The notes below the pieces were generated by a model. It did not search any database. It saw only the letters and a list, made by a program, of their open reading frames with translations, and was not told the origin of the DNA. This document shows positions 11,512 through 40,191 of a stretch of DNA of 64,000 bases, in pieces. Source of the stretch: a virus; IMG/VR virus record IMGVR_UViG_3300042868_010004, positions 32,001 to 96,000 of that record; one strand, 5' to 3'. Position numbers and translations under genes: made by a program. Position 1 is the first letter of the stretch. Each line of letters starts with the position of its first letter.

Positions 11512-12657
11512 TCAATATTTGTTTCTTTTCTTAGGGATGTAATCAACGGGTTTTTCAATAATTTCTTCGCTTGGAAAATTGAGGCGATTCAGATTCACCG
11601 AATTTACGCGGCAATGATAGTCATGCGCGCGAGCTGCCGACACTTCATCTAAATGAATCTCTCTAATTCTATTTCCATTAAAGGTTAATATCATTTCCCA
11701 TGTTTTTGGACTTCTTTTGTTGACCCCGTTAAATACAGAGGTTTTACCTTTTCTTCTAAAAAGTGGTTTATTGGGGTTTGTCCTTTTTTCATAAATCTCT
11801 TTCCCTTCGGAAATATAAGAGTCTTTAGAAACTAGATTTGGAAAATTCATTACCGCATCTTCGCCGTGAAGATAATAGGTGACTTTATCTCTAACGACAG
11901 CCGCTTCCTCCTCTGTGTTATATCTTCCCAGAAATACTCGGTTGCCCTTTCCTGCGGTTGCCCGGGCATTAAAAGCAGATCCATCATGTAGAACTTCCAG
12001 ATATTTACTTTTAGGTTTGCGGATAACGCAAATTTTATCCAAATATTCTGTTATGTTCATATTCAAATACTCTTCTTTTTTGTCCGGATGAATCAAAACA
12101 GCTTTCTCGCCATATTGAAATATAGAAGCGATGTCTCTTGCCGTTTCAGCATCTTCTTTATTTTCAAACCTCTTGCTCACATTTTTACCATTATAAAACA
12201 TATTGAAACACCATTTATTTCTTTTTTTGTCCCACGAAACGCCGTGGCTTCGGTTTCTTGATTTTATATGGGAGTTTAATCCAATCATCTTTCGAGTTTC
12301 ATCGGAAACAAATTCCTTACCGTCCCCATAGCCATCTATAGTCAGATTATACCCATAATTCGGATCAATCGCGTTATAATATTTGATATAAAAACCCTCT
12401 AAAAATACACAATGTTTAAAACTATTAGCTGAATCAATCTGTTTTATTTCAAAATTTTCTATACCATATTTTCTCATTGTGTGATAAAGATAGGTCATAC
12501 CTACTTTTTTACCAGATTTCAAAGTATATTTTTCTCCATGCTTAGCGTGCGCTTTATGCACTGACCATCTGTGGAACAAAGACTTCTCCGTCTTGCCTAT
12601 ATAGAATTTTCGGGTTATTAGGTTCAGGATACGGTATAAAATATATGTTTTTGGCAT
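11512..12657 (-). CDS. GIY-YIG homing endonuclease with C-terminal AP2 DNA-binding repeats
   Basis: ILYRILNLITRKFYIGKT...R (GIY-YIG); HGVSWDKKRNKW, FLGRYNTEEEAAVVRD...NFP and SVFNGV...SAARAHD (AP2-like); AT-rich. Confidence 0.9.
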   Translation of the reverse strand: MPKTYILYRILNLITRKFYIGKTEKSLFHRWSVHKAHAKHGEKYTLKSGKKVGMTYLYHTMRKYGIENFEIKQIDSANSFKHCVFLEGFYIKYYNAIDPNYGYNLTIDGYGDGKEFVSDETRKMIGLNSHIKSRNRSHGVSWDKKRNKWCFNMFYNGKNVSKRFENKEDAETARDIASIFQYGEKAVLIHPDKKEEYLNMNITEYLDKICVIRKPKSKYLEVLHDGSAFNARATAGKGNRVFLGRYNTEEEAAVVRDKVTYYLHGEDAVMNFPNLVSKDSYISEGKEIYEKRTNPNKPLFRRKGKTSVFNGVNKRSPKTWEMILTFNGNRIREIHLDEVSAARAHDYHCRVNSVNLNRLNFPSEEIIEKPVDYIPKKRNKY

Positions 12658-18839: not shown

Positions 18840-20180
18840 ATGGGTCGCAAAACCAAAACATTTACGGAAGAACAGGAAAATGAAATTATTAAGGATTACC
18901 TCGGGGGTATGTTCCACAAGGAGCTACTAAAAAAGTGGGCTCTGGCCCATTATAAGTGGCGCGAAATCAAAGACCGGCGTGGCGTCGGTGATAGACGACC
19001 TGATTACTCCCATTTACCCAAAGATGAGGTTGCCGCTGATTACTCCGCTGGCATGCGGATTCCGGCCCTGATGGAAAAGTATAAATGCACGAAAGACGCG
19101 ATTTATGACATTACCAAACCTCTTAAGGTGGAAAGTCCGTTCTGGGTGCGGAGGGGATCTTCTGTGGAGAAGAGAATTTTAGAGCTACATGCCCTTGGTT
19201 GGCCCGCTCTTCCGATTGGGCGAGAGGTAGGAAAGAGCCAGTGCTGTGTTATTGGATGCTTGGAGAGGAATGGACTGAAGGCAGATAATCATTTGGCGGT
19301 TCCATTAGACGAGCACGATGTTGTTTGCGCTAGATATTTAGCGGGGGAAAGTTCGGAAGATATTGCTAAAACTTACCAAACCGCCGGATGTGTTATCCGT
19401 AATGTTTTAGAAAAAAATGGAATTGCTCGCCGTGGGATGAGTGAAGCTAGGCAAATTTATTCTATTAATCAAGATTATTTTGACGTAATTGACTCGGTAG
19501 AAAAGGCTTATATTATCGGTTACTTTTATGCGGATGCATGCAACAAAACCTACGACAGAACGGTTTCGATGGGCCTTTCCATTGTTGACGAAGAAATTCT
19601 GCATAAAATCAAAAAATGGATGGGAACAGAAGATAGACCCCTTCGCTATTTTCAACACGAGACAAAAAGCGGAGAAATAAAAGATTACGTTGAGCTAAAT
19701 ATTTATAACAAAAAAATTAGCGAAAAACTAGAAGAGATAGGTATTGTTCGCGCGAAAAGCTATGTTGAAATTCTTGATCTACCCAAGGGGATTCCCTACT
19801 CCCTGATACGCCACTTTCTTCGCGGGTTGATTGACGGTGACGGATGTATTTTCACGGCTAACACGGCAGAGTTTAACTTGGATTGCAGCGTCATGGGTAA
19901 TCCCGTATTGCTCGGAAAGTTGGCCGACCATATTCATAAAGAAATTGGTTATCTCCCAACTATTCGTGAAGCTAATTTGATAGAAAATACGAAATGTCGT
20001 AGCCGAAACATGTATATCGCCGGGAATCGGAATTGCGTTAAATTCCTGCAATGGCTCTACAAGGATCATAATGGTGCTCGGCTTGAAAGAAAATATCAAA
20101 AGTATAAGGGTGTAATTTCTGATTATTTTTCCAGAATTAAGGGTTCAGAAGATTTAGCGGAGTATAACTATGTTCATTAA
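18840..20180 (+). CDS. LAGLIDADG homing endonuclease with N-terminal HTH-like repeats
   Basis: KAYIIGYFYADAC and RHFLRGLIDGDGC motifs; C-terminal LERKYQK. Confidence 0.9.
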   Translation: MGRKTKTFTEEQENEIIKDYLGGMFHKELLKKWALAHYKWREIKDRRGVGDRRPDYSHLPKDEVAADYSAGMRIPALMEKYKCTKDAIYDITKPLKVESPFWVRRGSSVEKRILELHALGWPALPIGREVGKSQCCVIGCLERNGLKADNHLAVPLDEHDVVCARYLAGESSEDIAKTYQTAGCVIRNVLEKNGIARRGMSEARQIYSINQDYFDVIDSVEKAYIIGYFYADACNKTYDRTVSMGLSIVDEEILHKIKKWMGTEDRPLRYFQHETKSGEIKDYVELNIYNKKISEKLEEIGIVRAKSYVEILDLPKGIPYSLIRHFLRGLIDGDGCIFTANTAEFNLDCSVMGNPVLLGKLADHIHKEIGYLPTIREANLIENTKCRSRNMYIAGNRNCVKFLQWLYKDHNGARLERKYQKYKGVISDYFSRIKGSEDLAEYNYVH

Positions 20181-28773: not shown

Positions 28774-29658
28774 ATGAGAACGCACAAAAAATTCTGGACA
28801 CAGGAAGAAAAAGATTTGCTTGGCAAAGTATGCAATGGAACGGAAAGTTTCAAAACTATTGCGAAAAAATATTTTCCTAATAGAACGCATATGGCGGTTG
28901 AGTCAGCATGTAGTGTTTTTGGGTTTAAAAACGATTTCGATCATCGGACTTATCCGCCTGATGACAATTTTTGGTCTGTTCCAAATGAAAATAATTCATA
29001 TTGGGCTGGGGTGATGGCGGCAGACGGATGTATTTATAAAGATAAAGGCTTAAAATGTCGATCTTTTCATTGGGCTATTTCAGAGGTTGATTTGCCGTTG
29101 ATGAATATTTTTTATAAAGATGCCAAGTTGACATGTCCCATTATTAGATTTCAAAACACAAGAGATACTGGATACGTTAGTAAATTTATCAGGGTCAGCG
29201 TCTTTTCAAAACAATGGATGGAGGATTTTGAAAAAAATTTTAATCTAGTCCCTCTTAAAACACAAAGGCTCGCGCCCCCGGAACATCTTGAAGAAAAGCT
29301 ACTGTGGTCTTATTTGAAAGGCTACACCGATGGTGACGGATGCGTAAGAATAAGTAGAGGAAAAGAACACAAGACACTGGTTATAGAATATGCTTCTAGT
29401 AGCATAGAAATATTGCACTGGATAAAAAGGATGACTGATTTAAAATTTACATCAAGAAGGAATTACGGAAGAGAGGTTCACTCTAGCGGAAATAAACATA
29501 CTTTTTCTATTGGGGGACAAGCCGCAATTCAAATGTTCTTGTTTTTGTCAAAACTTCCCGTCCCTTGCCTTGACCGAAAATGGAAAAATCCAGAAGTCTT
29601 AGAGCTTGTCGCCAAAGAAGTCGCCGCCCGACCCGAAGCCTACAAAGACTTCGTTTAA
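28774..29658 (+). CDS. LAGLIDADG homing endonuclease
   Basis: SYWAGVMAADGC and SYLKGYTDGDGC motifs; AT-rich. Confidence 0.9.
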   Translation: MRTHKKFWTQEEKDLLGKVCNGTESFKTIAKKYFPNRTHMAVESACSVFGFKNDFDHRTYPPDDNFWSVPNENNSYWAGVMAADGCIYKDKGLKCRSFHWAISEVDLPLMNIFYKDAKLTCPIIRFQNTRDTGYVSKFIRVSVFSKQWMEDFEKNFNLVPLKTQRLAPPEHLEEKLLWSYLKGYTDGDGCVRISRGKEHKTLVIEYASSSIEILHWIKRMTDLKFTSRRNYGREVHSSGNKHTFSIGGQAAIQMFLFLSKLPVPCLDRKWKNPEVLELVAKEVAARPEAYKDFV

Positions 29659-35620: not shown

Positions 35621-35719
35621 ATCTAACGTCAAAGATGAGCGAGACGGATGATTGGCACTGGACGTGCGTAAGCACGGACTGTGACAAGCATACGGCTTCG
35701 CTCCATCGCTTTGTTAGGC
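35621..35719 (-). other. attC site 1 (99 bp)
   Basis: minus strand: GCCTAAC-AAAGC-GATGGAGC ... GCTCATC-TTTGAC-GTTAGAT (R''-5-L''(8, extra G) ... L'(7)-6-R'). Confidence 0.9.
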
Positions 35720-35755
35720 TTCTTTTTTTTAATTTTTCTGATAAAACGGAAAAAA

Positions 35756-36046
35756 TTAGCGAGGACCGTTCCGTTTCAATTCAGCTATCTGAGCAAGAAT
35801 ACCATCAAAGATTGGATGCACTGTCTCGCCTTCCTCCTGAACTTTAATGGAAAACACAACGGTAAGAACCGAACCTTTCTTCGGCTGAATATTCTTTTCT
35901 TTTAATGTCTGCTCTATGGCAAGAATCGCACCATCAATTGAAAGATCATGTGGGGCGACGACTCTCCAAACCCCCTCGGTTACTGGGTCGATTAGCTCAA
36001 CCACATTTGGAGCCTTCTTTGTGAACTGAAACTTTAAGTTACTCAT
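35756..36046 (-). CDS. cassette-borne hypothetical protein (96 aa from ATG 36046)
   Basis: stop 36 nt before the attC1 R'' box. Confidence 0.7.
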   Translation of the reverse strand: MSNLKFQFTKKAPNVVELIDPVTEGVWRVVAPHDLSIDGAILAIEQTLKEKNIQPKKGSVLTVVFSIKVQEEGETVHPIFDGILAQIAELKRNGPR

Positions 36047-36197
36047 TTTTCTGATTTTTCTATGATTACTAATACAAACAAAGTAAATTCCGACCAACAA
36101 CCCGACTACTCCGATAACCTAGTTGATACCGGAGTTAGAATGTGCCGGGACGACGAAAATAAATCCCTCACCGTATCCGTGGATGAATCCACTTTCA

Positions 36198-36485
36198 CTA
36201 TTCCCTTTTCCTTTCTTGAATCTGTCGTAACAGGCTTAATTCTTCAGGGCTGGGCAGGCCGTGTGCTGCCACCTGATTATCTGGATCAACTTTTAATATC
36301 ACTACCGGCGGGAGGTAAGGATCTATTCCGTCCCTGATGCGCTTGCTTCTGAAATCGACTACCGCTTTCTTAGCGGACTCAAAAGATAGTTCATGATCAG
36401 AGAATACCCAATATGTGATTTTTAGTCCGGGGTCACGGACACCGATCATGTGTTTTGGTGGAACCTCTTTGATGAAGTCGCTCAT
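36198..36485 (-). CDS. cassette-borne hypothetical protein (95 aa)
   Basis: ATG 77 nt after the attC2 R' box. Confidence 0.7.
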   Translation of the reverse strand: MSDFIKEVPPKHMIGVRDPGLKITYWVFSDHELSFESAKKAVVDFRSKRIRDGIDPYLPPVVILKVDPDNQVAAHGLPSPEELSLLRQIQERKRE

Positions 36486-36562
36486 GGTAATAATTTTTTA
36501 ATTTATGAATAACGCTAACGAAAAACAAATCGGCGCGGAAGCGCCTTCTGATGGCTCGGTGT

Positions 36563-36660
36563 GCCTAACGCCCCAGCCTACCCATGACACTGATTGGCAC
36601 GAATCGTGCGCAGCACGAGGCGTGACAAGCAGGGGCATTGGGTGCGGCGCTTCGTTAGGC
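36563..36660 (-). other. attC site 2 (98 bp)
   Basis: minus strand: GCCTAAC-GAAGC-GCCGCACC ... GGTAGGC-TGGGGC-GTTAGGC; shares TGATTGGCAC, CGTGCG..AGCACG and GTGACAAGCA with attC1. Confidence 0.88.
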
Positions 36661-36706
36661 TCTTTTTTGGCTTCCGGATTCGTTTATCAAGTGCTGCACT
36701 GCCTTT

Positions 36707-37138
36707 TCAGACCTTTTTACTATTTCCGTCTTGTTCGGTGGTTTGTAAGTCTGAATCCGACCATTCATCATTTTCTCCTTTTGTGTCAGGCGTCGGCAAT
36801 ATGTCGGGGTAACTCTCAATCGGCCTTGGCGTGTATAAATAATCCGAATTCTCCGGGCAAGATAGCCTTTTATTCAAATTATACGTTACCGTTGCCATAT
36901 CCAAAGAACGAAAAAATGGATGCCAAGGCTTGGGGGCCTCTGCCATCAATCTCCCACCAAACTCCCACACAAGACAAACTGTGCCCGCAATCCCAGCATT
37001 TGCCGCGCAAATCTGTATAAAAATCTTGGTTTCAAGCATATCTTTCGCGGTGGCATTTTGTGCCCACCGTCCATTCAGAGGAACTATAATCATTTGCTGA
37101 CCACGAACATTCAAATGCGCTATATTGTAATTCTTCAT
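36707..37138 (-). CDS. cassette-borne hypothetical protein (143 aa)
   Basis: AHLNVRGQQMIIVPL...CAANAGIAGTVCLVW...APKPWHPFFRS looks like a conserved small bacterial domain; ends 46 nt before attC2. Confidence 0.75.
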   Translation of the reverse strand: MKNYNIAHLNVRGQQMIIVPLNGRWAQNATAKDMLETKIFIQICAANAGIAGTVCLVWEFGGRLMAEAPKPWHPFFRSLDMATVTYNLNKRLSCPENSDYLYTPRPIESYPDILPTPDTKGENDEWSDSDLQTTEQDGNSKKV

Positions 37139-37205
37139 ATTGTAAGATAGATGAATAAAATTCAGTAAATTAGCAGGATTGCGTCCGAAACCAATAAAAC
37201 TCTGG

Positions 37206-38630
37206 CTATAATCTATCTAGATCAGCTAGAATCTCTCTTGGTGCCGCGCCATTCTCGGGTCCGACAATTCCGTTCTCCTCCAATAAATCCATGATCTGCG
37301 CCGCTCGATTATATCCAATCCTGAGGCGGCGCTGAAGAGTCGAGGTTGATGCCCGCTGAGTAGCCTTAAGAATATTCAGCGCCTTGTTGTATAATAAAAC
37401 ATCATCCAGATCTTCTCCTTCATCATCCACTTCGTCCAAATCATCTTCCTCGGAAGAGTCATCGAACTGTATAGCTCTATTTATTAAATCAGATTTGCTC
37501 TCGGTTTCTGAGCGGACGAGAACCCCCAGAACCATCGCAAGCAAATCATCTACATCGTGAATCTTCGAAACTTGGGAAGAAACCACAGCTTCGTCATCAA
37601 AAAGTCGCGCACTTAGCCGGGAATGAATCCCTTTCGGATGAAGTAGAAAAACATTCGCGGAGGAAGCCAATGCTTGGGCTGATTTCGTGAAAATTCCGGT
37701 GCTAATAACTGCGGCAAAATCAGCCTTCTCAAACTCTCTTCCCGCAATGATTTCTTGAACGGCTGAGTTCCCGACACTGTTAGCGTATCGTTTGCACTGA
37801 ACCACAAGTTTAACTCTCGGCGTCGTCGCAATAACATCAATTCCTTGATCCCCGCTCCCCGATGTGGTTCGTGTAGTCCAACCCGAGCGAGAAAGTTCGT
37901 TAGCGCATTCTCTCTCGAAACTGATGGGATCAAGCTCGGCCCATTCAAACTCCGCGCTTTCTGCCTTACCCCAGCATGACGAAGCAAAGTCAATAATGCG
38001 AAATACTCTATTGTATGTTGATTCTACACTTTTTACTGATCGCAGAGAATCAAATTCCTTACTGCTTCCACCTACTAAAAAATGAAGGATGAAATAATTA
38101 ATCTCTGCGTCCCATTCCTCTCGAATCTGTCTCCCATAATGATCAACGCGCAAAAGCTGGGATCTTCTTAGGCTCAGTGTGGGCAAATGATGAACCAACG
38201 GGGGCCTGATTAAATCAATGATTTTTAGTAACTCGATTTCGGTTCGCTCTTTTTCGGCTTTAGCTCTTTCAAGCAGTTCAATCTTTCTTTCCTTTTCTCT
38301 GCTCAATCTCAAAGACTCAAATTCGATTTTCTTCGCCTCTCGCCTGATAGTATCCAGAGACAATCCATCAAGGAAATGATTCAATTGCTCCGCCGTGAAT
38401 TTAAATTTTGTGAGATCTGCCAGCTCTCGGTTAGCTTCCTCAACAAAATACTCTAACGTTACACCGGGAAGGTCTCGGAATGCTTTTAACGAATCCCGCC
38501 ATACCATCTCTTGCTCCTTGGTGATTACTGTGACGACCGGGGCGGGCTTCTCACTCTTCTTGGTCTGACACTTATGACACGTTTGGGCGTCATCCCAGTT
38601 CTGAACGTTGCAGCATGGACAGTTCCACAT
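37206..38630 (-). CDS. Zn-ribbon + coiled coil + Mrr-like PD-(D/E)xK endonuclease + FtsK gamma domain fusion
   Basis: MWNCPCC...TCHKC; FERECANEL...GDQGIDVIA...VVQCKRY...VGNSAVQEI; RASTSTLQRRLRIGYNRAAQIMDLLEENGIVGP. Confidence 0.9.
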   Translation of the reverse strand: MWNCPCCNVQNWDDAQTCHKCQTKKSEKPAPVVTVITKEQEMVWRDSLKAFRDLPGVTLEYFVEEANRELADLTKFKFTAEQLNHFLDGLSLDTIRREAKKIEFESLRLSREKERKIELLERAKAEKERTEIELLKIIDLIRPPLVHHLPTLSLRRSQLLRVDHYGRQIREEWDAEINYFILHFLVGGSSKEFDSLRSVKSVESTYNRVFRIIDFASSCWGKAESAEFEWAELDPISFERECANELSRSGWTTRTTSGSGDQGIDVIATTPRVKLVVQCKRYANSVGNSAVQEIIAGREFEKADFAAVISTGIFTKSAQALASSANVFLLHPKGIHSRLSARLFDDEAVVSSQVSKIHDVDDLLAMVLGVLVRSETESKSDLINRAIQFDDSSEEDDLDEVDDEGEDLDDVLLYNKALNILKATQRASTSTLQRRLRIGYNRAAQIMDLLEENGIVGPENGAAPREILADLDRL

Positions 38631-38980
38631 GGTGTTGAGCTAGGCAAAATGCCAATTTTTCGTAAAGCGAAAATCTATTTTTCTTTGGCTGCGGTGATGT
38701 GAGCGAGGCGAACGGTAGAATTAAAAAACCTTTGGCTGCGCACTTTTGCGCGGCAGCGCAATCTGGAATTAGATAGCTGGGCTTCGCCCGGCGTCGATTT
38801 CGTGTGTGGTGCCTAGCATGGGTCGTGCGTAGCACGACTGATGCGTAGCACGGTTGTTTGTGGTTTGTTGGCTCGAAAAACGACTTTGTGACCGTTCGGC
38901 GCAAGCCGATTTAAGGGAACAATGTCGTGGATTGGGGGATCGTTTTTCTCTTTTTCCGAAGATCGGTGTAACCCAAGGAA

Positions 38981-39316
38981 ATGGATTCCAAGTATGAGCT
39001 AACTAGAGAAGATTTCGAAAATCATTTCGCTAGATTCTCAGAAGAGGAGCGAAAGCGTATAATTTCCTTTCTGGAAAAGACTCAATATACCCCACCACTT
39101 TCTTCATTCTTTCTTCGTCCGACATCAGCTCCTTGGTCCATTTTCCCTCTAGCTCTCTCGCGATTCTTTCACTATTTATTTTGGCATAAGCTGATTTCAA
39201 CCAATCTCCGAAATCGTCTAGACCAGTGGCAAAAGCGTAGATATGAGCGTATTCATGGTAAACCACCTGAAGGGGACAATTTCCTGAAGACTTTATTAGA
39301 GTGGGGCGCAGACTGA
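38981..39316 (+). CDS. hypothetical protein (111 aa) with late-promoter geometry
   Basis: GTGTAA 38966-38971, 9 nt before the ATG; overlaps a minus-strand ORF. Confidence 0.5.
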   Translation: MDSKYELTREDFENHFARFSEEERKRIISFLEKTQYTPPLSSFFLRPTSAPWSIFPLALSRFFHYLFWHKLISTNLRNRLDQWQKRRYERIHGKPPEGDNFLKTLLEWGAD

Positions 39317-39485
39317 TTGTATCTCCGATTGCTCCCGCGATACTGACCGGCTGATTATCACTGGCGAAAACCTTAATACCTTCGGGATACTTTTGAAGTA
39401 TAGCCGATTGAACCTCGCCCGGCAACGTATCGAATAACTGGCGGGCCAGATTTTCTAGATTGGTGTATTCGTGAGGGGGCGGCAT
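39030..39485 (-). CDS. HExxH zinc-metallopeptidase-like cassette protein (probable start ATG 39485)
   Basis: VVYHEYAHIY; starts 65 nt after the attC half-site R' box at 39551. Confidence 0.6.
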   Translation of the reverse strand: MPPPHEYTNLENLARQLFDTLPGEVQSAILQKYPEGIKVFASDNQPVSIAGAIGDTISLRPTLIKSSGNCPLQVVYHEYAHIYAFATGLDDFGDWLKSAYAKINSERIARELEGKWTKELMSDEERMKKVVGYIESFPERKLYAFAPLLRI

Positions 39486-39550
39486 GGTTTTTGGGGCGAG
39501 TGGCTGGCGCGGAGCATGCGAATAAGGAAATAGATTGGGTGGGTTGGTTT

Positions 39551-39577
39551 GCCTAACGCTCAAGGTGAGCGAGACGG
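39551..39577 (-). other. attC half site (L'/R' arm)
   Basis: plus text GCCTAAC-GCTCAA-GGTGAGC-GAGACGG, nearly the same as the corresponding arm of attC1. Confidence 0.75.
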
Positions 39578-39608
39578 GATAAGTCTTATTTTGTTTTTGT
39601 TTTGGTAT

Positions 39609-39716
39609 GCCTAACGCCCCCTATCAGCCATGCAGCCCCAATCTTTCGGTCCTATGAATAACTCCTCGCGAAAAATTGTAACGGCTATATGCATTGGCTG
39701 CATAGGTTTGTTAGGC
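39609..39716 (-). other. attC site 3 (108 bp)
   Basis: minus strand: GCCTAAC-AAACC-TATGCAGC ... GCTGATA-GGGGGC-GTTAGGC; second unpaired base in CAATGCA/TGCATG. Confidence 0.9.
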
Positions 39717-40057: not shown

Positions 40058-40088
40058 CCGGCGTGTTCGCTCCAGCGCTTCGTTAGGT
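40058..40088 (-). other. attC half site (R''/L'' arm)
   Basis: minus strand ACCTAAC-GAAGC-GCTGGAGC-GAA, same family as the attC1 arm. Confidence 0.75.
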
Positions 40089-40191
40089 TCCTGTAATTTC
40101 TCATTTTCTATTTTCCCGTGTAATCCCTTTTTAGGCAAAGGCAGGATTCAGAATTCAGTCAGTAATTGGTTTTTCGGCACACGGTAAAAAT

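What the first reader, a model, noticed from the sequence alone, without database searches (positions are those of the whole stretch)
37206..38630. Mrr-like nuclease fused to the FtsK gamma (KOPS-reading) domain
Seen: an N-terminal Cys4 Zn ribbon, a coiled coil, a complete Mrr-type catalytic domain (~37635-37920; DQGID...QCKRY) and, after an acidic linker, a C-terminal ~65 aa matching the FtsK gamma winged helix (LQRRLRIGYNRAAQIMDLLEENGIVGP..PREIL). There is no FtsK motor domain. Established: FtsK gamma binds oriented KOPS octamers (GGGNAGGG in E. coli), and Mrr-family domains act in restriction and other defence. Inference: a nuclease steered to chromosome-polarity motifs or competing with host FtsK at the terminus. 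It could degrade host DNA, or be a cassette-borne defence module used against competing phages.
Basis: partly seen in the sequence, partly recalled or inferred. Interest (0 to 1): 0.78.

Follow-up and report, generated by a model that had tools for sequence, protein, structure and literature searches.

The report
Integron-cassette Mrr nuclease with borrowed FtsK reader
A 191-kb lake phage carries, inside a small integron-type gene-cassette array, an intact DNA-cutting enzyme whose DNA-binding tail was copied from the chromosome pump FtsK of its probable verrucomicrobial hosts; it is most likely a stand-alone defence-type nuclease of a recurrent but unstudied design.

Summary
Window 37206-38630 (minus strand) is one 474-aa ORF with four parts: a RanBP2-pattern Cys4 finger, long helices, an intact Mrr-type PD-(D/E)xK nuclease (Pfam E 2.6e-22; E239, D265, Q278, K280 conserved), and an FtsK-gamma winged helix (E 4.8e-25). 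There is no FtsK motor domain and no methylase.

New here:
- The gamma domain is 77-79% identical to the C-terminal end of FtsK in Opitutaceae/Verrucomicrobiota.
- The gene lies in a ~3-kb cassette between two of three attC sites. A model built only from attC sites of verrucomicrobial arrays (two beside an IntI gene) hits all three (E 5e-21, 1e-19, 6e-8). The phage has no integrase, so this is an integrase-less array.
- Mrr-gamma fusions recur in several domain orders. In temperate phage contigs they sit between the repressor and the integrase.
- Base-reading positions of gamma vary in the fusions (R1300 is Q here) but are invariant in 82 FtsKs. Canonical KOPS is not depleted in the phage.

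Best reading (~0.5): a cassette-borne, single-gene defence-type nuclease that uses gamma as its DNA-binding module. KOPS steering and host-DNA degradation are untested. This scan has noted similar fusions in other genomes. No paper describing them was found.

The parts
37206..38630 (-). Whole ORF, 474 aa including the stop codon (P0001). A possible alternative start is M42 at 38507.
38565..38630 (-). N-terminal Cys4 finger, aa 1-22, RanBP2-type pattern W-x-C-x2-C-x3-N-x6-C-x2-C
   Evidence: The pattern matches aa 2-21 and is conserved in P0005. Pfam E is only 0.66 and model confidence here is low.
38154..38519 (-). Helical region aa 38-159, including one 68-residue helix (aa 92-159). Candidate oligomerisation stalk.
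   Evidence: AF2 model, pLDDT 86-98. The oligomerisation role is inferred.
37938..38213 (-). Conserved helical N-domain aa 140-231 that precedes Mrr_cat. It is shared with many gamma-less 'restriction endonuclease' proteins.
   Evidence: Near-invariant H148, L152, Y165, G166, E176, F180 in 110 sequences. 165 of 259 fetched proteins have N-domain plus Mrr.
37617..37937 (-). Mrr-type PD-(D/E)xK nuclease domain aa 232-338, with candidate catalytic residues E239, D265, Q278, K280
   Evidence: Pfam E 2.6e-22. D261, Q262, D265, Q278 and K280 are invariant in 110 sequences. Fold Z 12.5 to AF1548 and Z 9-9.5 to MspJI/AspBHI.
37407..37553 (-). Linker: helix aa 360-390, then a disordered acidic stretch (15 D/E of 25 residues)
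37215..37406 (-). FtsK-gamma winged helix aa 409-472, ending at the protein's C-terminus as in cellular FtsK
   Evidence: Pfam E 4.8e-25. PDB 2ve8 E 5.4e-11. 77% identity to verrucomicrobial FtsK C-termini. Fold rmsd 1.6 A over 62 residues.
36563..36660 (+). attC site closing the cassette that holds the nuclease gene (downstream of it on the minus strand)
   Evidence: Covariance model built from chromosomal verrucomicrobial attC sites only: 77.7 bits, E 1.4e-19. Fold.
39609..39716 (+). attC site at the upstream boundary of the cassette
   Evidence: 37.4 bits, E 5.9e-8. Fold z -4.1.
35621..35719 (+). Third attC site, closing the neighbouring two-ORF cassette
   Evidence: 82.6 bits, E 5.2e-21
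39030..39563 (-). Co-cassette gene orf177, a small HExxH zincin-like protein (SprT / DUF2201 / M48-like fold). Any link to the nuclease is unknown.
   Evidence: HEYAH motif. Atlas structural neighbours. No Pfam hit.
36707..37138 (-). Co-cassette gene orf143, 68 nt downstream of the nuclease. Unknown small alpha/beta protein with an acidic tail.
   Evidence: No homologue was found beside other Mrr homologues.

Best explanation
The gene is a mobile, single-gene nuclease of the defence type, carried as an integron gene cassette that a probably virulent 191-kb phage has picked up.

Shown:
- The protein joins an intact Mrr/MspJI-like PD-(D/E)xK DNA-cleavage domain to a winged helix taken from the C-terminal end of the FtsK of an Opitutaceae-like verrucomicrobium.
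- The gene lies between attC sites of the type found in cassette arrays of those bacteria, all three of which encode an integron integrase.
- The same two-domain combination recurs in several domain orders. In temperate phages it sits in the lysogeny module.

Inferred mechanism:
- The long helices and the nuclease core make the protein an oligomer, as Mrr and MspJI-type enzymes are. This brings several gamma domains together; FtsK needs three to read one KOPS.
- The gamma domains anchor the enzyme on double-stranded DNA at short G-rich KOPS-like words, or with relaxed specificity.
- The Mrr domain then cuts nearby, using E239, D265, Q278 and K280 with Mg2+.
- The biological target is most likely invading or competing DNA (superinfection exclusion, inter-element conflict). 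In this phage the cassette may serve against co-infecting phages or be a recent passenger.
- How the carrier's own DNA is spared is not known.
For: Domains and active site.

Gamma is host-derived:
- 77-79% identity to the extreme C-termini of 840-860-aa FtsKs of Opitutaceae/Verrucomicrobiota.
- It groups with them in a tree (SH-aLRT 88-90, 65 columns).
- M1305L is shared by 7 of the 8 closest fusions, which suggests one capture for this subfamily.

Cassette status:
- Three ~100-nt hairpins with RYYYAAC/GTTRRRY ends occur only in this island of the genome.
- Homologous sites form a tandem array in genome G267 directly beside a TIGR02249 integron integrase (382.7 bits, cut-off 265). One site lies near an integron integrase on the same contig in G174. 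Two sites lie on a different contig from the integron integrase in G002.
- These three genomes are also the three best FtsK-gamma matches of 401 searched.
- The model R1, built from chromosomal sites only, scores the phage sites at E 5e-21, 1e-19 and 6e-8, in the same orientation relative to the ORFs as in the G267 array.

Family context:
- 27 of 259 fetched proteins combine Mrr and gamma, with gamma at the C-terminus, at the N-terminus or in tandem.
- In viral contigs L031, L049/L050 (and, by near-identical ORF layout, L053), L066 and L076 the fusion lies directly upstream of a serine or tyrosine integrase. The gene before it is a CI-like repressor in L031 and an ImmA-like M78 peptidase in L049; the other contigs were not checked for it.
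- One gamma-less homologue, L183, is followed by an attC site.

Precedent: Mrr_cat fusion cassettes (Epona, Divona) from Vibrio chromosomal integrons protect against phages (bioRxiv 10.1101/2024.07.02.601686). Integrase-less attC arrays (CALINs) are known in virulent phages (PMC9892861).

Stand-alone status: no methylase in the phage and no conserved neighbour gene.
Against: - No experiment on any Mrr-gamma fusion was found.
- PADLOC matches (ZorD, PDC-S02, LmuA, type IV REase) cover only the nuclease domain.
- None of 401 Verrucomicrobiota genomes holds the fusion, so a cellular defence role in that phylum has not been seen directly.
- A nuclease with no methylase in a phage whose DNA looks unmodified leaves self-protection unexplained.
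- The cassette holds two further genes of unknown role.
Confidence: 0.5

Rival explanations
1. Host-takeover nuclease. During lytic infection the gamma domains read the host's own KOPS-like polarity words, which are dense on a GC-rich verrucomicrobial chromosome. They direct the Mrr domain to shred host DNA, for shut-off and nucleotide supply. The 43%-GC phage is largely spared by low motif density.
For: The gamma domain is a near-copy of the FtsK gamma of the probable host lineage. The phage has no integrase and looks virulent. Candidate host genomes are far more GC-rich than the phage: 0.67 in the chromosome flanking the G267 array against 0.43 in the phage.
Against: R1300, needed for full KOPS reading in E. 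coli, is Q here, and the base-reading positions vary among the fusions. Canonical KOPS is at the expected frequency in the phage. The gene arrived as an integron cassette, and relatives sit in lysogeny modules, where killing the host chromosome would be suicidal unless tightly controlled. The host's real KOPS is unknown.
Confidence: 0.2
2. Silent passenger. The cassette was inserted into the phage by a host integron integrase and is not expressed or not useful there. Whatever the nuclease does, it does in bacteria.
For: The array has no integrase and no recognisable cassette promoter in the phage. It interrupts the plus-strand structural genes and is transcribed in the opposite direction. Most cassettes in arrays are described as non-expressed or silent in the abstracts of PMC11023631 and PMC13108822.
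Against: The ORF is intact with all conserved residues. There is a 400-nt non-coding leader upstream that could hold its own promoter. The identical protein is seen on 4 contigs.
Confidence: 0.15
3. Xer/FtsK interference. Gamma acts as a protein-binding module. It docks on host XerD, as FtsK gamma does, bringing the nuclease to XerCD-dif or blocking dimer resolution.
For: All FtsK residues that contact XerD in structure 5DCF (Q1288, R1289, R1292, I1293, G1294, N1296; PMC5052618 Table 1) are kept in this protein.
Against: The same surface binds DNA, so its conservation is not specific. N1296 and R1292 vary across the fusions. Gamma domains in tandem or at the N-terminus in relatives fit a DNA-binding module better.
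Confidence: 0.07
4. Free-standing homing-type endonuclease. The winged helix recognises a site in related phages so that the gene can spread.
For: The window is rich in homing-type endonuclease genes. The architecture is a modular nuclease plus a DNA-binding domain.
Against: Mobility is already explained by the attC sites. Relatives lie next to integrases and repressors, not inside conserved phage genes.
Confidence: 0.05

Closest known systems
E. coli Mrr (EcoKMrr) and MspJI/AspBHI, type IV modification-dependent restriction enzymes
   Same: Same catalytic domain family (Pfam Mrr_cat; D...QxK motif). Fold Z 9-9.5 to MspJI/AspBHI. No cognate methylase.
   Different: Those enzymes read modified bases with an N-terminal Mrr_N winged helix or an SRA-like domain.
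FtsK gamma subdomain (E. coli aa 1261-1329; P. aeruginosa 2VE8/2VE9)
   Same: Same fold and family. 77-79% identical to verrucomicrobial FtsK gamma. The XerD/DNA-contact residues Q1288, R1289, R1292, I1293, G1294 and N1296 are kept.
   Different: No alpha/beta motor domains. R1300 is Q. The fusion copies evolve several-fold to tens of times faster than the FtsK copies (terminal branches mostly 0.26-1.2 against about 0.02-0.1 for most FtsK copies) and vary at the base-reading positions.
Epona and Divona, anti-phage integron cassettes of Vibrio chromosomal integrons (bioRxiv 10.1101/2024.07.02.601686)
   Same: Single-gene integron cassettes built on an Mrr-type nuclease fused to an unrelated accessory domain. 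Those have experimentally shown anti-phage activity.
   Different: Epona's partner is a two-TM holin domain, and Divona's are DUF4365 and crr6. This protein has no TM segment (maximum hydropathy 1.35). Its partner is FtsK gamma, and it lies in a phage, not in a chromosomal integron.
CALINs (attC clusters lacking an integrase) in virulent phages (PMC9892861)
   Same: An attC array without IntI inside a phage genome, among structural genes.
   Different: The reported phage arrays mostly carry methyltransferases or unknown ORFs. A nuclease cassette was not among the passages shown by my term search of that paper.
Other phage proteins with a lone FtsK gamma domain (Vibrio phage 'FtsK gamma domain protein'; Gordonia phage Bowser gp53, RusA-like plus gamma)
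   Same: The gamma winged helix is reused outside FtsK, sometimes on a nuclease.
   Different: Different partner domains, and none has been characterised for DNA specificity.

Membership tests
Mrr_cat (PF04471) PD-(D/E)xK nucleases | Profile match above the curated cut-off | tested here: met
   79.5 bits against cut-off 21, E 2.6e-22
Mrr_cat (PF04471) PD-(D/E)xK nucleases | Catalytic acidic residue(s) and Q/E-x-K motif intact | tested here: met
   D261, Q262, D265, Q278 and K280 invariant and E239 near-invariant in 110 aligned homologues. The match to the inactive variant NA-iREase1 is much weaker (33 bits).
Mrr_cat (PF04471) PD-(D/E)xK nucleases | Restriction-endonuclease-like alpha/beta fold | tested here: met
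   AF2 pLDDT above 90 in the core. Z 12.5 to AF1548, 10.4 to the FokI cleavage domain, 9-9.5 to MspJI/AspBHI.
Type IV restriction enzyme of the E. coli Mrr kind | N-terminal Mrr_N-type winged helix, or another reader of modified bases | tested here: not met
   No Mrr_N or SRA hit at E<=1 in Pfam. The N-terminus is a zinc finger plus helices.
Type IV restriction enzyme of the E. coli Mrr kind | Cleavage depends on DNA modification | not testable with these tools
   Needs enzymology.
Type II restriction-modification system | Cognate DNA methyltransferase | tested here: not met
   No N6_N4_Mtase or C5 methylase anywhere in the 191-kb genome.
FtsK/SpoIIIE DNA translocase | FtsK_SpoIIIE motor (alpha/beta) domain | tested here: not met
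   No PF01580 hit. The NCBIfam FtsK model is matched only at positions 1285-1350 of 1355.
FtsK gamma domain (PF09397) | Profile match and winged-helix fold | tested here: met
   87.5 bits against cut-off 30.6. rmsd 1.6 A over 62 residues to 2ve8, Z 10.7.
FtsK gamma domain (PF09397) | KOPS-reading residues (E. coli R1300, E1303, E1306; PMC2680272) | tested here: not met
   Q, D and E here. The 82 nearest FtsKs have R, D/E and E. Binding specificity itself is untested.
FtsK gamma domain (PF09397) | XerD-contact residues (Q1288, R1289, R1292, I1293, G1294, N1296; PMC5052618) | tested here: met
   All six are identical. The same surface also binds DNA.
Integron gene cassette | Bounded by attC sites (R''/R' boxes, bulged hairpin) in the canonical orientation to the ORF | tested here: met
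   Model R1, built from chromosomal attC sites only, hits 36563-36660 (E 1.4e-19) and 39609-39716 (E 5.9e-8). The strand relation to the ORFs is the same as in the G267 array.
Integron gene cassette | The same attC type occurs in arrays next to an integron integrase | tested here: met
   G267: seven sites in tandem beside a TIGR02249 match (382.7 bits, cut-off 265). G174: one site near an integron integrase on the same contig. G002: two sites on a different contig from its integron integrase.
Integron gene cassette | Integron integrase in the same replicon | tested here: not met
   No tyrosine recombinase in the phage. The array is therefore a CALIN.
Known PADLOC defence systems (Zorya ZorD, Lamassu LmuA, PDC-S02, type IV REase) | Full-length match or partner genes | tested here: not met
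   Matches cover only the ~100-aa nuclease domain (aa 229-354). No helicase or SMC partner is nearby.

The most novel reading that the evidence does not exclude
FtsK gamma domains have been repeatedly taken over by nucleases as readers of the host chromosome's polarity words. The enzyme would tell host chromosome from foreign DNA by KOPS-like motifs. It would either cut KOPS-rich DNA (abortive infection or host shut-off) or be held off by it, a Chi-like self mark. The variation at N1296 and R1300 would be an arms-race retuning of the word that is read.
Probability: 0.2. Interest if true: 0.85.

Novelty: new variant of a known kind. Interest (0 to 1): 0.6.

Why it matters
Mrr-type nuclease domains are common effectors of bacterial immunity, but what aims them is mostly unknown. 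Here the aiming module is a recognisable copy of the domain that reads chromosome-polarity words, taken from the FtsK of the probable host lineage. That gives a concrete, testable hypothesis: which DNA word does the domain bind, and is that word a host signature?

The context also links three things seldom seen together: a verrucomicrobial integron type, an integrase-less cassette array inside a large virulent phage, and a nuclease cassette. This is direct evidence that phages sample the integron cassette pool for conflict genes, and it gives a host assignment for an uncultured lake phage.

Tried and rejected
- Literature searches for the fusion found nothing. One search found only general Xer/FtsK papers.
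- The type II R-M idea is rejected: no methylase.
- The temperate-phage idea is rejected for this genome: no tyrosine or serine recombinase.
- DNA hypermodification as self-protection has no support. There is no ThyA-like enzyme, and extreme avoidance of 6-bp palindromes points to unmodified DNA.
- KOPS avoidance has no support. GGGNAGGG, the B. subtilis word GAGAAGGG and the L. lactis word GAAGAAG (PMC3384302) are all near expectation, and no asymmetric word stands out among the words frequent enough to score.
- A conserved partner gene is rejected for now. Island ORFs have no homologues beside other Mrr homologues in 240 loci, and orf177 is unrelated in sequence to the ImmA-like gene beside the fusion in L049.
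- I first took the cassettes to be inverted, going by the R''/R' boxes. That was wrong, because the boxes are symmetric under reverse complement. Orientation was settled by model score (82.6 against 34.4 bits) and by comparison with the G267 array.
- The apparent homology of aa 361-408 to the FtsK linker is compositional only.
- No Mrr or gamma genes were found in 80 other attC-bearing IMG/VR loci.
- Rfam has no family for the hairpins.
Full report
**What is there.** The window is bases 32001-96000 of a 191,122-bp IMG/VR virus record with direct terminal repeats, rated complete. It carries a large terminase, a candidate portal and a 2018-aa tape measure gene on the plus strand. Between the head and tail modules lies a 4-kb island whose credible genes are on the minus strand.

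One of those genes is the flagged ORF, 37206-38630, 474 aa. Pfam gives FtsK_gamma (E 4.8e-25, aa 413-469) and Mrr_cat (E 2.6e-22, aa 232-332). There is no FtsK motor and no Mrr_N reader. NCBIfam's FtsK model is matched only at its last 66 positions.

Residues 2-21 fit the RanBP2 finger pattern exactly, and the pattern is kept in the 42-47%-identical P0005, although Pfam alone does not call it (E 0.66). The public gene call starts at M42 behind an AAGGAG. However, 27 of 31 genes here have no Shine-Dalgarno, so I favour the long form.

An AF2 model from a 110-sequence alignment (pLDDT 87.5) shows, in order:
- a poorly defined finger;
- helices, including one of 68 residues (aa 92-159);
- a helical N-domain;
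- the alpha/beta nuclease core;
- a helix at aa 360-390;
- a disordered acidic stretch (15 D/E of 25 residues);
- the winged helix.

VIA-align gives Z 12.5 to the Mrr-like AF1548, Z 9-9.5 to MspJI/AspBHI, and Z 10.7 (rmsd 1.6 A) to P. aeruginosa FtsK gamma (Foldseek). D261, Q262, D265, Q278 and K280 are invariant, and E239 nearly so, in 110 homologues. The nuclease therefore looks active. There is no TM segment.

**Where the gamma domain came from.** The last 62 residues are 77-79% identical to the extreme C-terminus of 840-860-aa FtsK proteins of Opitutaceae/Verrucomicrobiota MAGs. The next-best phyla reach 52-63%. In 401 Verrucomicrobiota genomes every strong hit but one is the cell's own FtsK; the exception is a single gamma-less Mrr-domain match. 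No fusion was found.

A 65-column tree, weak but consistent, puts this gamma and those of the seven closest fusions with the Opitutaceae and Lentisphaerota FtsKs (SH-aLRT 88-90). Most fusion branches are several-fold to tens of times longer than most of the FtsK branches. M1305L is shared by 7 of the 8 fusions, which suggests one capture for this subfamily.

Other fusions carry proteobacterial-looking or Firmicutes-looking gammas, at the N-terminus, at the C-terminus or in tandem, so the combination has arisen more than once.

**Does it still read KOPS?** In E. coli, R1300A, E1303A and E1306A together make FtsK KOPS-blind (PMC2680272). The 82 nearest FtsKs have R, D/E and E at these positions; this protein has Q, D and E.

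Across the eight closest fusions, 58 of 272 cells differ at the 34 positions that are invariant in those FtsKs. The most variable positions are 1305 (7 of 8), 1275 (6 of 8) and 1296 (5 of 8). Recognition-helix positions 1297 and 1300 change in 3 of 8. The six residues that contact XerD in 5DCF are all kept, but the same surface binds DNA (PMC5052618), so this does not discriminate between the two roles.

In the phage, GGGNAGGG occurs 13 times against 13.1 expected. No asymmetric G-rich word stands out as avoided, but only words with an expected count of 8 or more were scored, so most 8-mers were not tested. Specific KOPS steering is therefore unproven and somewhat weakened. An altered or relaxed specificity is as likely.

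**The cassette.** Repeat and folding analysis found three ~100-nt imperfect hairpins with GCCTAAC...GTTAGGC ends, a 5x4-nt internal loop and a bulged inner stem. They lie at 35621-35719, 36563-36660 and 39609-39716, and occur nowhere else in the 191 kb. Notes from other first readers called this an attC array, and I tested that.

- The pattern GCCTAACG-N68-98-GTTAGGCT hits 10 of 401 Verrucomicrobiota genomes. There are five tandem hits in G267, two each in G002, G261 and G303, and one in G174. The G267, G002, G261 and G174 hits are visibly homologous to the phage hairpins; the G303 hits are not. The reversed control pattern gives only scattered hits.
- G174, G002 and G267 are, in that order, the three best FtsK-gamma matches.
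- In G267, seven sites spaced about 500-650 bp apart (one larger gap) separate single ORFs on the opposite strand (GC 0.49 against 0.67 outside). They abut a divergently oriented integron integrase (TIGR02249, 382.7 bits, cut-off 265; none of 14 control genomes passes). G174 and G002 also have an integron integrase, near the attC site on the same contig in G174 and on a different contig in G002.
- A covariance model built only from 12 chromosomal sites finds exactly the three phage hairpins in the 64-kb window. E-values are 5.2e-21, 1.4e-19 and 5.9e-8, with the strand relation to the ORFs the same as in G267.

The phage has no integrase, so the array is a CALIN, a thing already reported in virulent phages (PMC9892861).

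The nuclease shares its ~3-kb cassette with two other genes:
- orf177, a small HExxH zincin-like protein;
- orf143, an unknown small protein.

Neither recurs beside other Mrr homologues.

**Family context.** The N-domain plus Mrr core is very common (29,412 library hits at E<=0.001, though that count includes gamma-only matches). One gamma-less member, L183, is followed by an attC site.

In temperate viral contigs the Mrr/gamma fusion lies directly upstream of a serine or tyrosine integrase (L031, L049 and the identically organised L050, L066, L076; L053 has the same layout but was not scanned). The gene before it is a CI-like repressor in L031 and an ImmA-like M78 peptidase in L049. That is the classic place for prophage genes expressed in the lysogen.

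PADLOC and PHROGs give only domain-level matches. GenBank phages carry lone gamma-domain proteins and a RusA-gamma fusion. Mrr_cat fusion cassettes from Vibrio chromosomal integrons (Epona, Divona) are proven anti-phage genes. This scan had noted Mrr-gamma fusions in other genomes before. I found no paper on them.

**Verdict.** The most likely reading (about 0.5) is a cassette-borne, single-gene, defence-type nuclease whose DNA-binding module was taken from the host lineage's FtsK.

Shown: the domains, the intact active site, the origin of gamma, the cassette status and the recurrent architecture.

Inferred: oligomerisation, the mode of targeting, the biological target, and use by the phage.

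Rivals, with confidence:
- host-DNA degradation steered by KOPS-like words (0.2);
- a silent passenger cassette (0.15);
- XerD/FtsK interference (0.07);
- a homing-type endonuclease (0.05).

Self-protection of an apparently unmodified phage genome remains unexplained.

Noticed in passing
window 35621-39716; G267:C1:1299848-1306498 (L264, L267): The three-site attC array in the phage is homologous to attC sites of complete integrons (IntI plus tandem cassettes) in Verrucomicrobiota genomes. This gives both a host-lineage assignment for the phage and evidence that a virulent phage sampled a chromosomal integron's cassette pool.
   Followed up: yes
window 39540-39577 and 40066-40099: Two half-sites resemble the left and right arms of attC1. 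They lie about 490 bp apart and enclose attC3 and a 74-aa plus-strand ORF, like a split attC. The covariance model does not call them.
   Followed up: partly
whole 191-kb genome (G000): Extreme avoidance of 6-bp palindromes: CGATCG 0 against 96 expected, CCGCGG 0 against 83, GGATCC 0 against 48, and GTCGAC and GAGCTC both 0. This indicates heavy type II restriction pressure on unmodified DNA. No methylase genes were found.
   Followed up: partly
whole genome: The word ACGTGAGA(A) is over-represented (22-24 copies against about 11 expected, z about 6). It may be a phage promoter or regulatory motif.
   Followed up: no
window 39030-39563 (-): orf177, in the same cassette as the nuclease, has an HEYAH motif and a predicted zincin fold (neighbours SprT-like, DUF2201, M48). 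It has no Pfam hit.
   Followed up: partly
window 35756-36485 (-): The neighbouring cassette holds two small ORFs (114 and 95 aa) with no family hits. The layout is reminiscent of two-gene toxin-antitoxin cassettes.
   Followed up: no
window 11512-12657 (-), 18840-20180 (+), 28774-29658 (+): Several homing-type endonuclease genes (GIY-YIG/HNH; phrog_4645) are scattered through the packaging and head region.
   Followed up: no
protein P0182 (639 aa, from the representative library): A natural protein with three tandem FtsK-gamma domains and no Mrr or motor domain. It parallels the engineered covalent 3-gamma trimers that bind KOPS tightly (PMC3384302).
   Followed up: no
L031, L049, L050, L053, L066, L076 (IMG/VR contigs): Mrr/gamma fusions of 378-435 aa (split into 135- and 284-aa frames in L053) sit directly upstream of a serine or tyrosine integrase. 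A CI-like repressor precedes the fusion in L031 and an ImmA-like peptidase in L049. L050 and L053 are assigned by matching ORF layout only.
   Followed up: partly
L183:78-880: A gamma-less N-domain plus Mrr_cat homologue from a soil metagenome is followed 125 nt later by an attC site of the same model (E 3.6e-12). Nucleases of this family therefore occur as cassettes elsewhere.
   Followed up: partly
L337, L305, L283, L285, L332, L287, L343, L309 (IMG/VR contigs): Many contigs classed as viral carry arrays of 4-10 attC sites scored by the same model. Some may be integron fragments misclassed as viral.
   Followed up: no
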